Shown here piece by piece: positions 200 through 64,000 of a stretch of 64,000 bases of DNA. The stretch is from the NCBI GenBank assembly GCA_012295275.1, contig CM022670.1, positions 21,886,001-21,950,000 of the forward strand. The letters run 5' to 3'. Each line of letters opens with the position of its first letter. Position 1 is the first letter of the stretch. Below the pieces are notes generated by a model. It was given only the letters and a program-made list of their open reading frames with translations. It ran no database searches and was not told the DNA's origin. The translations under genes were made by a program, and so were the position numbers. The DNA is from Chrysomallon squamiferum (taxonomy: Eukaryota; Animalia; Mollusca).

Positions 200-3100
200 A
201 TCAGAAACGATAAAAACAGTGACGGACAAGATCAACTCCTATCTCAGGTTGCCGGCTTCACGAATAAAATGTAAATAAATAAATATACCTCTGTATGAAT
301 CAGTATACGATCCTCTCACTCATGAATATTCAGTAACCACCACAGAGACGCCAACACTAATGACGTTAAAAAGCAGAATAATTGACACTAATGTCAATGC
401 TCTACTTCAGATATAAAAAAGCCTATACACAGATTTTTCTTTTATGTTTCATTGTCCCGGAAAACACTGCTAATAATAGGGTTGGAGCGTATAATTACCT
501 AGTGTAACATATACAAACATATAAAGATATTATTAAATTAGAATAGAAATAGTAAAAAAGAGCATATAAATATACAAATAAAGGACACAACGACAAACAC
601 TCATAAATAATGAGATTTCTGTTGAGCAAAGTTAACAACAGTGGTACCTCTCTTGTGGAGAATCGCAGGTGTCCATTCATCAGAGGTACAATAATAAAAT
701 ACAATTTAGTTTTTATCATATTCAGAAGAAAAATGAATCAAGGCAGGGAGAGAGAGAGAGAGAGAGAGAGAAAGAAAGAGAGAGAGAGAGAGAGAGAGAG
801 AGAGAGAGAGAGAGAGAGAGAGAGAGAGAGAGAGAGAGAGAGAGAGAGAGAGAGAGATCAGTATGTACTGAAACATAAAGATTGTTTGAATAGACAGTTG
901 TTTATTTTTCATTGCAGGGCATTACGTTTCGTCACCTAATGAGTGTTTATTTTACATTTAGTTTAATTCACCAAAAAAAACAACAACACACAGACACTTT
1001 TTTATATAGTATAAAATATTACACAAGTCTGATGTAAGGGTCTTTTAAAACAGTTATGGCTTTGTATCTCTTTAAAAAATAAAAATAACGGACAACAAGG
1101 AAACACACTGCAGCCATGTTGTGTTAAACTAGACACTGTGATCCCGGAAGACTTGTTGTTCTTCAAGGCGTAGACGCTTAGTCAACGTTTACTGTCACAT
1201 TTTGTGTATTGTTCCTTCTTTCTCCTCGGTGCAAACTGAATATACATATGATTAACTGGGTCGCACTGCAGACATACCCTGTGTCACTCTTCATTCACTG
1301 TATAAACAGTATTCTATGAAATACTTTTATCAAATAAACAAAGCTATAATAATAATAATAATAATAACAATAATAATAATAATAATAATAATAATAATAA
1401 TAAAAATAATAATAATAATAATGATAATGATAATAATAATAATAATAATAATAATAATAATAATAATAATATAGTAATAATGGTAGTAGGAGCAGCAGTA
1501 GTAGTAGTAATAATAATAACAATAATAGTAGTAGTAGAGAGACGTAGTGGTAGTAGTAGTAGGAGGAGGAGGATTAGTGGTGGTGGTGGTAGTTTTGGTT
1601 TGTTGTAATATCAGTAGCAACAATATTAATATCGGAAGTATTTTTGCAGATGAAAACAAATATATTAGCACAAAATAACAAATAACGGCCATATTGTCTT
1701 TTCTGTTTGAAAGTTTTAAATTTATTACTTCAAATGAGTACAGTTTTTTTCTTCTGTGTGTGAGTTGCATCTATCTTTTTAGTGTCAGTATGTGAATGTG
1801 TGTGTGTGTGTGAGAGAGAGAGAGAGAGAGAGAGAGAGAGAGAGAGAGAGAGAGAGAGTACCTGTTTAATCATATTTAACAGAAAAAGGAGTATAACGTT
1901 ACTTCTTCTTTAAATAAAGGAAAATACACAGTTATCTAAAAATAAATCTTTCTCTGAGTTAAATCAGTATTTGTGTAACAGTGTAAAATATCTGTCGAGC
2001 AAATTATAGCTGTCACTGTGATTCAACAAGACATCTACATTAGTTAGTAGTTCTTTTTCTTCTTGTATATAACTTTGTTTGTTATTTGTTATTTTTCGGG
2101 GTTGTTTGTTCTTCTTGTAGTCGTTATATTTCCTTATTTATTTTTATCGTTCTTTGTGTTATCAAATATGAAAAATTACTTCACTAGGTAAATACAGCTG
2201 TAATATGCATTTATTTATTTGGTTTTTTGTGTGTTGTTTTTTATTCCTTTGTTTATTTATTTATTTAATAACGTTAGAAAATAGCAAATGTTCATTAAAT
2301 TTTGTTTTCAAACTTCTATCTTCTTAGCATACAGTAATACATAGAAACAAACGCATCCACGAAACAAATGATAGCCACACACAGAAACACACATACACAC
2401 ATGTATCTGTGTGTTTGTGTCGTGTACGTATATATATACTGTGACTCTTGTGACAGAAGTTATTAGAAGCATGGGTTTGTAATCTTATTAAGTATACAAA
2501 CACATTCATACAAAAATTAAAACAAGCATTTTATTTGAATAAAACCAATAGAAGTCTGTTACATGAAACTGTTAAGGTCATATTTACACAGAGTGGAATC
2601 TCTTAGTCTGAAAGAATTAAAACTAGTGATATAAAATAAGTGTGAGTAACAAAGCAATATATGTACAAAAGAGAGGCAAACGTTTTATCTAAAAAGACCG
2701 CGATAGATATCACACACAAAAAATACATCTTTCTTTATTAATCTAATTACTGAACTTCACAATATTTATGTTTTTATCTAACTCGTTTTAGAAAAAGGAA
2801 AGTATTTTCACGAAGGAATTTGTTATCATGGTATAGATTATTCTTTCTAGAGAATATATCCGAAAAATACTTTAAATGATGACTGTTACTTTCTTTTAAT
2901 TATGTCATGTTTATTTTGTCGTATGGAGATCCTTGGTCAACACATTCAACTTGCAAAGCATCGTAATCATTAGTGTGTCGTTGGTCATCTTGTGTGCCGT
3001 GTTGCGTGTGTCCTGAAGATCTTCTGTTACGTTCGATAGGTCCTTGATGTGAGGAAGAGGCAGAACCATTTGCATCATCAACGACAGCTTCGTACACAGG

Positions 3101-4191
3101 ATGAGCCATGGTAGTTGCTGTAGTTTGGTTTTCTATTTTTCTCAAAGGTTACAGACGGCTCCGTCGGTTTGGGTCTTCCGATAAACCCTGAAATTGATAT
3201 TTCTCTTTTCATAGAAACATCGGTTGTGATTTAAATTATAATTAATTAATAACAGGTAATACACCAAGTATGATCGATCACGGATTATTGAGAAATAAAT
3301 ATTCTCGAGTAAATTTGTGAATCAGCGATATATTGATAAAGCATCCCTTCCTGATGAAAATATGAACACAATTATATTTAAAACCCCCAAAAATCTAAAT
3401 CTCATTTTCATAGTAATTAATGTTGACCTAAATCAAAACGTTTAATATTATCGAAAACAAGAGAAAATGCAAAATATATTTTCTTACGTAATAACAAGAA
3501 TGAGGGCAGCTCCACTGAAAATCAGGGCTAAAGCTGTGATAGATGACAGAATAATGACACTAGTCTGTGTGGTTTTCTGATCTGGAACTGAAGATAAATT
3601 ATCGGTATGTATAGACGAATGAATGTTTTATAACAAATTAGTAAACATACATTGAAGTAAACACAAAATTATTTTTCTACCTGTGCAGTCCTGTCTTGTC
3701 CATCCATATTCACATCCATTTTGACATTTTCCACTGATGTGATTACACTCTGAAAGTCCACTACAGTGTCTTTCTGTACATGATCTTGAACATTCTGGAC
3801 CATACCATCCTTTGTCACAAGCTAAAATCAAAAATGTATTTCCAAGTAGAAAGTAAAATATACACTATATTATTTTGTTCATGACTGAAAACAGTTCGAA
3901 ATTCTCCAAATGATAAAATGTACCAATACAAGAAGTATCCAAATTTAACTGTTCGATGCAAAAAACGTTGAGGTAACCAGTCTAAAACAAACAATCTTCA
4001 AACAGTTTTAAACTGTGATTAATGTTAAAACGAAAATATAAAAATAAAATACTCACGTTGCTTACAGAGCTGACCTTGGTATCCATCTTTACAAACTCCT
4101 GAACACTTTCCAGAAATAAAATCACACGTTTCTGTTTTACACTGACCACACGTAGAATTACAGTCAAATCCGTATTTTCCAGATCTGCATT
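200..4191. repeat. Third, internally deleted copy of the 14420-19630 block (TM relic, orphan start, 3' half of Tyr-motif receptor)
   Basis: Collinear near-identity by eye: ~200-740 with ~14420-15000, ~850-1300 with ~16470-16920, ~2880-4190 with ~18390-19630. Confidence 0.8.
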
Positions 4192-62777: not shown

Positions 62778-64000
62778 TTATGTCATGTTTATTTTGTCGT
62801 ATGGAGATCCTTGGTCAACACTTTCAACTTGCAAAGCATCGTAATCATTAGTGTGTCGTTGGTTACCTTGTGTCCCGTGTTGCGTGTGTTCTGTAGATCT
62901 TCTGTTACGTTCGATAGGTCCTTGAGGTGAGGAAGAGGCAGAGCCATCTGCATTATCAACAACAGCTTCGTACACAGGATGAGCCATGGTAGTTGCTGTA
63001 GTTTGGTTTTCTCTATTTTTCTCAAAGGTTACAAACGGCTCCGTCGGTTTCGTTCTTCTCTGATAAACCCTGAAATTGACATTTCTCTTTTGATAGAAAC
63101 ATCGGTTGTGATTTAAGTTATAATTAATTAATAACAGGTACTACACCAAGTATGATCGATCACTGATTATTGAGAAATAAATATTCTCGAGTAAATTTGT
63201 TGAATCAGCGATATATTGATAAAGCATATCTTCCTGATGAAAATATAAACACAATTATACTTAAAACCAAAAAAATCTAAATCTCATTTTTATAGTAATT
63301 AATGCTCACCTAAATCAAAACTTTTAATATTATCGAAAACAAGAGAAAAAGCAAAAGATATTTACTTACATAATAACAAGAATGAGGGCAGCTGCACTGA
63401 AAATCAAGGCTAAAGCTGTGATAGATGACAGAATAATGACACTAGTCTCTGTGGTTTTCTGATCTGCAACTGAAGATAAATTATCGTTATGTACAGACAA
63501 ATGAATGTTTTATGACAAATTAGTAAATATACATCAAAATAAATATAGATTATTTATTTACCTGTGCAGTCCTGTCTTGTCCATCCATATTCACATCCAA
63601 TTTGACATTTTCCACTGATGTGATTACACTCTGAAAGTCCACTACAGTGTCTTTCTGTACATGATCTTGAACATGTTGAACCATACCATCCTTTGTCACA
63701 AGCTAAAATCAAAAATGGATTTCCAAGTAGAAAGAAAAGTATATACTATATTATTTTGTTCATGACTGAAAACAGTTCGAAATTCCCCAAATAGTAAAAT
63801 GTACCAATAAAAGTAGTATGAAAATTTAAGTGTGCGATACAAAACTCGTAGTAGTCACCAGTCTCAAACAAACAATATTCAAACAATTTTAAACTGTGAT
63901 TAATGTAAAAACGAAAAAATAAAAATAAAATACTCACGTTGCTTACAGAGGTGACCTTGGTATCCGTCTTTACAACCTCCTGTACAATTTCCAGAAATAA
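62778..64000 (-). CDS. Gene G: 3' part of another EGF/TM/ITAM-like receptor (continues beyond window)
   Basis: Exons 64000-63938 (partial EGF), 63702-63562 (EGF), 63469-63370 (TM), 63069-62778 (292 bp, in frame, YDALQVESVDQGSPYDKINMT*); near-identical to gene C. Confidence 0.88.

What the first reader, a model, noticed from the sequence alone, without database searches (positions are those of the whole stretch)
2900..64000. Candidate invertebrate paired-receptor cluster: one lectin-EGF ectodomain wired to ITAM-like tails or a tyrosine phosphatase
Seen: at least five tandem paralogs share closely related signal, F-type lectin and EGF exons but have different intracellular modules. C and G carry YxxL-x10-YxxI, D carries YxxL-x10-YxxM, F carries tandem PTP domains with intact WPD and HCSAGVGR in D1, A is truncated, and relics carry an ITIM-like tail. 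Known: vertebrate paired receptors (KIR, Ly49, Siglec, SIRP) pair near-identical ectodomains with opposite signalling modules in birth-and-death clusters; Draper/MEGF10 signal through a long-spacer ITAM; EGF-ectodomain RPTPs are already commonly annotated in molluscs. Inference: a glycan self/non-self sensing system in which the counter-acting partner carries its own phosphatase instead of recruiting SHP through an ITIM. Caveat: F has two lesions in this assembly.
Basis: partly seen in the sequence, partly recalled or inferred. Interest (0 to 1): 0.85.

Follow-up and report, generated by a model that had tools for sequence, protein, structure and literature searches.

The report
Mollusc paired receptors: ITAM versus phosphatase
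A tandem cluster of genes, likely from a snail, puts nearly the same lectin-like outer part on two different inner parts, a short tail with an activation-motif (ITAM-like) pattern or a tyrosine phosphatase, and the same pairing recurs in another snail and in abalones, so these likely act as on/off immune receptor pairs in which the "off" partner would carry its own phosphatase.

Summary
Observation mostly confirmed. The window holds a minus-strand array of signal peptide, F-type-lectin, EGF and transmembrane genes. C (488 aa) and D (491 aa) are intact and end in YxxL-x10-YxxI/M. G is cut by the window edge, A is broken, and F runs into tandem PTP domains but has a 1-nt lectin deletion and a stop in D2. 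The "ITIM relic" was not confirmed.

Gigantopelta aegis has an intact phosphatase form and an ITAM-like form with 92% identical lectin domains, against 67-70% to the window copies of either type; a phosphatase-type lectin clade is rejected (p-AU 8e-51). Abalones show further phosphatase/ITAM-like sister pairs. A is an F-type/G-type hybrid, the expected product of unequal crossing-over. Spliced RNA contigs cover the phosphatase exons but are mostly paralogue-like.

Both architectures are already described side by side at Biomphalaria schistosome-resistance loci, with no mention of ITAM in the text I searched. Opposed signalling, ligand and co-expression are untested. Verdict: new variant of a known kind, interest 0.7.

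The parts
18406..22978 (-). Unit C: intact 9-exon gene, 488 aa; signal, F-type lectin (22304-22101, 21066-20839), 4 EGF exons, TM (19026-18927), tail exon (18697-18406)
   Evidence: Pfam F5_F8_type_C_2 on lectin exon 1
18418..18471 (-). ITAM-like motif of C, YxxL-x10-YxxI
32229..37840 (-). Unit D: intact 9-exon gene, 491 aa; lectin and EGF1-3 exons 87-94% identical to C, but last EGF, TM and tail only 51%, 73% and 64%; compensated frameshift in about the first 15 tail codons
32241..32294 (-). ITAM-like motif of D, YxxL-x10-YxxM
40750..53914 (-). Unit F: signal, lectin, 4 EGF exons, TM (48365-48266), juxtamembrane exons, PTP D1 (46584-43688) and degenerate D2 (to 40750); 1-nt deletion at about 52685, TAG at 41122-41120, last exon not found
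   Evidence: spliced RNA contigs on the PTP exons
2900..9535 (-). Unit A: broken hybrid; F-like from the signal exon to about 4400, C/G-like below; frameshifted E3a and tail, so at best a 455-aa receptor without the tyrosine motifs
62778..64000 (-). Unit G, 3' part only: end of E3, E4, TM, tail with YxxL-x10-YxxI at 62843-62790
10130..16796 (-). Relic B: decayed signal, lectin fragment (12937-12863), EGF exon (12316-12170), tail remnant
55255..61294 (-). Relic B': copy of B; lectin fragment, frameshifted EGF exon, ITAM-like tail remnant at 55344-55255
4377..19557 (.). Block repeated at an offset of about 44.4 kb (48841-64000), 84-99% identical by segment

Best explanation
This is a birth-and-death cluster of single-pass F-type-lectin/EGF receptors in which two old endodomain types, a roughly 100-aa tail ending in an ITAM-like motif and a tandem tyrosine phosphatase, share lineage-specific ectodomains, likely by unequal crossing-over and gene conversion, and they likely work as paired receptors: a shared predicted glycan ligand would cluster both, the tail would be phosphorylated by a Src-family kinase and recruit Syk/Shark, and the co-clustered phosphatase receptor would dephosphorylate it. 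Shown: gene structures, conserved motifs, intact D1 catalytic motifs, ectodomain grouping by lineage rather than by endodomain, a hybrid gene, spliced RNA from close phosphatase relatives. Inferred: ligand, Src/Syk use, co-expression, opposite sign. F as assembled is probably a damaged copy, and the phosphatase role would be carried by paralogues outside the window.
For: (1) Lectin amino-acid identity is 84-90% among window copies and 92% between the G. aegis phosphatase form P0001 and tail form P0008, but 67-70% between species whatever the endodomain. EGF stalks are 91% within G. aegis against 41-46% across species. (2) Endodomains are older than the species split: F vs P0001 D1 69%, D2 55%; C tail vs P0008 tail 38%, with all three tyrosine motifs aligned. 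(3) AU tests reject a phosphatase-type lectin clade (p 8e-51) and a tail-type clade (p 1e-74) among 9 rows. (4) C vs D: dS 0.20 in the lectin and 0.27 in EGF1-3, against 0.83 in the tail. (5) A switches from F-like to C/G-like at about 4400. (6) Of 148 new proteins from the full HMMER search, 25 had a TM call plus EGF motif; 5 carry PTP, and 10 of the other 20 carry an ITAM-like tail (9 with strict L/I) against 0.21 expected by shuffling. (7) In a 31-row lectin tree the PTP label needs 6 changes (shuffled mean 6.8), with Haliotis PTP/ITAM-like sister pairs at support 86 and 98*; H. rufescens P0160 (tail) vs P0063 (PTP) ectodomains are 76% identical against 48-68% to the other four Haliotis PTP forms. 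(8) Oyster CgIgR signals through an ITAM to CgSyk and ERK (PMC6994640, passages). (9) Biomphalaria clusters with both architectures map to schistosome resistance (PMC12297450 passages; PMC13712769 section 20).
Against: No functional datum. F is broken in this assembly and A is broken, so no intact phosphatase member lies in the window. RNA contigs on F's PTP exons are mostly 90-99% alike (99+ in 1 of 18, 2 of 24, 7 of 26 contigs), come from one study, and were laid on the phosphatase half only, so they show neither F itself nor a lectin-to-PTP splice. Expression of C, D and G was not tested. The motif lacks the D/E-x-x-Y lead, D ends in M, and the distal tyrosine of C, G and the G. aegis tails also fits the ITIM consensus, so the sign of the tail is not fixed. 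Lectin dN/dS is 0.36-0.59, with no signal of positive selection over the whole domain. Tandem arrays homogenise shared exons without selection.
Confidence: 0.55

Rival explanations
1. Cooperating rather than opposing pair: the phosphatase receptor primes Src-family kinases, as CD45 and CD148 can, and so helps the ITAM-like partner fire on the same ligand.
For: All sequence evidence for pairing fits this too. CD148 is called an essential positive regulator of platelet activation (PMC2686144, search listing only). Removal of the inhibitory C-terminal phosphotyrosine of Src kinases is recalled knowledge.
Against: PTPRJ limits CEACAM3 phagocytosis driven by a tyrosine motif (PMC9418913, title and start of abstract). 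Repeated re-pairing with birth and death is the pattern described for opposed vertebrate pairs (PMC13358205 passages).
Confidence: 0.2
2. By-product of a tandem array: unequal crossing-over shuffles and homogenises shared lectin/EGF exons among neighbours, but the phosphatase and tail receptors work independently, in different cells or processes.
For: Many broken products (A, B, B', F lesions); intron homology extends along whole blocks; dN/dS below 1; partners differ around the basic triad (alignment), so ligands may differ.
Against: Both types are kept, with lineage-matched ectodomains, in two vent-snail-like lineages and in at least two abalone sub-families. D's tail is far diverged yet keeps all tyrosine motifs and a restored frame.
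Confidence: 0.22
3. Assembly artefact: the lectin-EGF exons were joined to an unrelated phosphatase gene, or the 44-kb duplication is an uncollapsed haplotype.
For: A 200-N gap lies just past F; indel-type lesions occur in F and A; one C/G segment is 99.2% identical over 829 nt.
Against: No N between F's signal and its last PTP exon; F's ectodomain exons differ by 4-10% from the nearest copy; RefSeq G. aegis P0001 and H. rufescens proteins have the same wiring; the two blocks differ in gene content.
Confidence: 0.03

Closest known systems
[quoted passage not shown]
   Same: Signal, galactose-binding/fucolectin domain, EGF repeats and one TM, followed by a small tail (1B) or two PTP domains (1C); clustered, copy-number variable, tied to schistosome resistance.
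   Different: [quoted passage not shown] 'ITAM' has 0 hits in both main texts and in 22 of 27 supplements of PMC13712769; 'concerted' has 0 hits in PMC13712769. I did not see Biomphalaria protein sequences, so orthology and their tail motifs are untested.
Vertebrate paired receptors (Siglec-5/14, Siglec-11/16, PILR alpha/beta; PMC13358205 passages)
   Same: Linked genes, near-identical ligand-binding parts maintained by duplication and conversion, different endodomains.
   Different: There the inhibitory member recruits SHP through an ITIM and the activating member uses the DAP12 adaptor. Here the candidate inhibitor has its own PTP domains and the candidate activator carries the motif itself. 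The ectodomain is F-type lectin plus EGF, not Ig or C-type lectin.
Draper/MEGF10 engulfment receptors (PMC8092387 passages)
   Same: EGF-repeat stalk, single TM, ITAM read by Shark/Syk; sources name the relatives 'MEGF10/11' or 'draper-like'.
   Different: N-terminal F-type lectin here; no NPxY in the C or D tail (translations). Draper is switched off by Corkscrew through an ITIM splice form, not by a sister receptor with its own phosphatase.
Hydractinia Alr and Botryllus FF/FcoR allorecognition clusters (10.1101/2022.03.04.482883; PMC12582321; passages)
   Same: Invertebrate clustered receptor families with ITAM-type tails.
   Different: They use ITIM or hemITAM tails with cytosolic SHP/SHIP and have other ectodomains; no PTP-bearing sister gene in the passages read.

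Membership tests
F-type lectin domain | Sequence homology to solved F-type lectins | tested here: met
   Profile A1 hits FBP32 (3cqo, E 4.4e-24) and eel lectin 1k12 (6.3e-7) among 6 PDB sequences; Pfam F5_F8_type_C_2
F-type lectin domain | Basic His/Arg/Arg triad with acidic residue, HX24RXDX4(R/K) as written in PMC5712786 | tested here: inconclusive
   Triad present; spacing H-x27-R; Asp in C and D, Glu in A and F, Lys/Asn in the G. aegis pair; the loop is one residue shorter than in FBP32
F-type lectin domain | Vicinal Cys-Cys that contacts fucose in eel agglutinin | tested here: not met
   No cysteine in that loop in any copy (feature from PMC5712786)
F-type lectin domain | Binds fucose or another glycan | not testable with these tools
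   Needs a glycan array
ITAM | YxxL/I-x(6-12)-YxxL/I core (PMC6994640) | tested here: met
   C, G and both G. aegis tails, spacer 10. D ends in M, and a spacer of 10 fails the 6-9 form used in the Hydractinia paper
ITAM | D/E three residues before the first tyrosine | tested here: not met
   0 of 5 tails; an acidic residue sits at -1 in the window tails
ITAM | Src phosphorylation and tandem-SH2 (Syk/Shark) binding | not testable with these tools
   Bench test needed
Receptor-type PTP with tandem domains | Signal, single TM, D1 with KNR-aromatic, WPD and HCSAGxGR, degenerate D2 | tested here: met
   D1 72% identical to P0001 over 235 aa
Receptor-type PTP with tandem domains | Intact reading frame of F | tested here: not met
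   First stop after 66 aa as assembled; 859 aa if lectin exon 1 is skipped
Paired receptors (definition in PMC13358205) | Closely linked genes with highly similar ligand-binding domains shaped by duplication and conversion | tested here: met
Paired receptors (definition in PMC13358205) | Inhibitory member with ITIM recruiting SHP | tested here: not met
   Candidate inhibitor carries PTP domains; no ITIM-only member found
Paired receptors (definition in PMC13358205) | Opposite signalling, overlapping ligands, co-expression | not testable with these tools
   Only contig-level RNA on the PTP half
Biomphalaria subgroups 1B/1C | Domain order signal, fucolectin/GBD, EGF, TM, small tail or two PTP domains | tested here: met
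   against section 20 of PMC13712769
Biomphalaria subgroups 1B/1C | Orthology to the Biomphalaria genes | not tested
   No Biomphalaria protein among the 20 hits whose names were looked up

The most novel reading that the evidence does not exclude
Molluscs evolved, independently of vertebrates, a widespread paired-receptor system in which F-type-lectin/EGF ectodomains are continually swapped between ITAM-bearing activators and inhibitors that are themselves receptor phosphatases, with no ITIM or SHP step; this is the signalling logic behind the Biomphalaria SudRes1/LG5R schistosome-resistance loci.
Probability: 0.4. Interest if true: 0.88.

Novelty: new variant of a known kind. Interest (0 to 1): 0.7.

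Why it matters
It would give molluscs an NK-receptor-like on/off recognition system built from different parts, with the inhibitor fused to its own phosphatase. It also gives a concrete, testable mechanism for mapped but unexplained snail resistance loci against schistosomes, where the same two architectures sit together and the short tails were left without a function. The tails of many proteins annotated 'MEGF10/draper-like' in snails, abalones and scallops would become predictable Syk-recruiting modules.

Tried and rejected
No genome was held for the window, so copies outside it could not be counted. A search with C's tail exon found nothing at E 0.001 among 41 longer candidates; the tail homology came only through the lectin hit. 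My first guess of a cephalopod origin was dropped: the nearest named proteins are gastropod. The ITIM-relic reading was rejected. The ESM Atlas did not complete. No structure or complex prediction was run: the sequence match to solved lectins sufficed, and phosphotyrosine binding cannot be modelled with the complex tool. RNA shares of 0.05-0.06 are not evidence by themselves; only the laid result is used. Lack of RNA cover on some exons is no evidence. The 34-nt exon modelled at 43174-43141 is uncertain, because one RNA contig joins 42864 to 43689 with unknown letters between. Reads were laid only on the phosphatase half of F, which leaves the lectin deletion and the EGF-to-TM splice unchecked. 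Literature searches for a prior description found none that state the pairing: (3 papers; 1; 0; 3), judged from listings and abstract starts; subscription journals are largely outside the library, and 5 supplements of PMC13712769 plus all supplements of PMC12297450 were not seen.
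Full report
What is there. The window is AT-rich, microsatellite-laden eukaryotic DNA with one 200-N gap at 40221-40420; no genome is held. Self-comparison shows units spaced about 15 kb apart and a block at 4377-19557 repeated at 48841-64000. Gene models built from coordinates have AG/GT ends on all internal exons of C and D and give open frames of 488 and 491 aa: signal, two lectin exons, four EGF exons, TM, and one tail exon. 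G shows only its 3' exons. A has a 1-nt insertion in E3a and two 2-nt deletions in the tail exon. F continues from lectin and EGF exons through its own TM exon into PTP D1 and D2 with no N in between. It has a 1-nt deletion at about 52685, a TAG at 41122-41120 and no last exon found before the gap. Two decayed relics, B and B', lie in the repeated block.

The motifs in C, G and D are as stated and arise in 0.1-0.3% of 20,000 shuffles per tail. D1 keeps KNRF, WPD and HCSAGVGR. The lectin call holds: a profile of the window exons and four relatives hits FBP32 at E 4.4e-24. The His/Arg/Arg triad is present, but the vicinal cysteines are absent and the acidic residue varies, so fucose specificity is not assured. 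The ITIM relic does not hold: the relic tail is ITAM-like, and two plus-strand relics are CD225-like last exons.

Relatives. The second lectin exon of C found 6 proteins among 57 candidates, 4 of them named Gigantopelta aegis, so the window is likely gastropod. P0001 (XP_041357574, 1067 aa) is an intact lectin-EGF-TM-PTP-PTP protein. P0008/P0002 (XP_041359117/8) is lectin-EGF-TM with a tail ending YxxL-x10-YxxI, and P0010 is a second tail gene. All are recorded on a contig of the same length.

The tree test. Lectin identity is 84-90% within the window, 92% between P0001 and P0008, and 67-70% between species in either combination; EGF stalks are 91% within G. aegis and 41-46% across species. 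Endodomains go by type: D1 69%, D2 55%, C tail against P0008 tail 38% with the three tyrosine motifs aligned. AU tests on 9 rows reject monophyly of phosphatase-type lectins (p 8e-51) and of tail-type lectins (p 1e-74). Inside the window, C and D differ by dS 0.20 in the lectin and 0.27 in EGF1-3 but 0.83 in the tail, and the last EGF plus TM is saturated. Tiles of A match F best from 9600 down to about 4400 and C/G below; A even carries two E3 exons, one of each type. This is the expected product of unequal crossing-over between a phosphatase gene and a tail gene. Lectin dN/dS is 0.36-0.59, with no whole-domain sign of positive selection.

Breadth. A full HMMER search with the lectin profile gave 3828 proteins at E 0.001 and listed 150. 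Of the 148 not seen before, 25 had a hydropathy TM call and an EGF motif; the other 123 were dropped. Five of the 25 carry PTP; 10 of the other 20 carry an ITAM-like tail (9 with strict L/I) against 0.21 expected. The ten are 3 G. aegis, 5 Haliotis, 1 Magallana (the weak match) and 1 Argopecten; all five PTP forms are H. rufescens. In a quick 31-row tree the endodomain label is no more clustered than shuffled labels (6 changes against a mean of 6.8), with PTP/ITAM-like sister pairs in Haliotis at 86 and 98*. P0160 and P0063, both H. rufescens, share 76% over 378 ectodomain columns. Linkage in these species rests on equal contig lengths only.

Expression. One search listed 3 RNA runs of one study and 1 other run. 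Laid on 40450-45100, RNA contigs cover exons and join across five modelled introns with canonical or near-exact ends. Most are 90-99% alike to F, with 99+ in 1 of 18, 2 of 24 and 7 of 26 contigs, so they likely come from paralogues. Every contig covering the D2 stop (2 in X2, 1 in X3, 2 in X4; none in X1) reads a sense codon, but these contigs carry other differences, so F's own allele is unresolved. Loose ends show a further coding exon after 40749 that the window lacks. The lectin half of F, and C, D and G, were not examined.

Mechanism. Oyster CgIgR uses a similar C-terminal ITAM to recruit CgSyk and activate ERK (PMC6994640, passages), and Draper/MEGF10 use Src plus Shark/Syk (PMC8092387, passages). 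The most likely model is that a shared ligand clusters both forms, the tail recruits Syk/Shark, and the phosphatase sister removes the phosphate (0.55). Rivals are a priming phosphatase (0.2), independent genes homogenised as a by-product (0.22) and artefact (0.03). The distal tyrosine of C, G and the G. aegis tails also fits the ITIM consensus and the D/E-x-x-Y lead is missing in 5 of 5 tails, so even the tail's sign needs a bench test.

What is known. Pennance et al. (PMC12297450, passages) describe clustered GBD-MEGF-TM-PTP genes at SudRes1. Calvelo et al. (PMC13712769, abstract, passages and section 20) describe subgroup 1B (fucolectin, small tail without signatures) beside 1C (two PTP domains). 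'ITAM' has 0 hits in both main texts and in 22 of 27 supplements of the second. Invertebrate ITAM/ITIM clusters are known in Hydractinia and Botryllus (passages). Searches found no paper stating an ITAM-versus-own-phosphatase pair; the library lacks most subscription journals. An earlier AI note on another genome (e1-9507145) voices the same idea; it led me to PMC13712769 and is not counted as support.

Verdict. Real and more than chance. The parts and their co-clustering are known; the conserved ITAM-like tail and the repeated ectodomain sharing between tail and phosphatase forms appear new on my searches. It works like a paired-receptor family but is not a member of the ITIM/SHP type. Interest 0.7; novel case probability 0.4, interest 0.88 if true.

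Noticed in passing
window 24355-24541 and 25952-26143, + strand: Two near-identical open exons resembling the last exon of a CD225/interferon-induced transmembrane gene (Pfam E 5e-4 to 7e-4); one simple pattern search found no first exon.
   Followed up: partly
window 23407-23517, 25043-25153 and about 39130-39300, + strand: Inverted, decayed EGF exons most like D's last EGF exon, lying head-to-head with the 5' ends of the minus-strand units.
   Followed up: partly
window 32535-32491, - strand: D's tail begins with a compensated frameshift (+2 then +1) that changes about 15 residues but restores the frame before the tyrosine motifs.
   Followed up: yes
window 18729-19557 and 63172-64000: 829-nt segment 99.2% identical between C and G while flanks are about 94%, suggesting a recent conversion tract.
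   Followed up: no
window 52799-52597: Skipping F's damaged lectin exon 1 keeps the frame through D1 (859 aa); the G. aegis tail gene has an annotated isoform (P0007) lacking the same half of the lectin.
   Followed up: partly
window 49180-49060: Decayed EGF exon in the intron between F's last EGF exon and its TM exon, also present more decayed in A at about 4660-4580.
   Followed up: no
window 47309-47035 and P0001: The juxtamembrane region of the phosphatase forms has Y-x-N motifs in both species, and the G. aegis tails have YVN; recalled as Grb2-type SH2 sites, untested.
   Followed up: no
lectin exons of A, C, D, F: By eye, differences between copies concentrate next to the His and Arg residues of the basic triad and in two other loops (alignment); not tested statistically.
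   Followed up: no
window 213-2140: Start of a third B-like relic with a decayed signal exon at about 1005-1181, showing that the array continues past the low end of the window.
   Followed up: no
window 41381-41817: 33-nt tandem repeat in a D2 intron of F; contigs of run X4 show joints that skip parts of it, so its length likely varies between copies.
   Followed up: no
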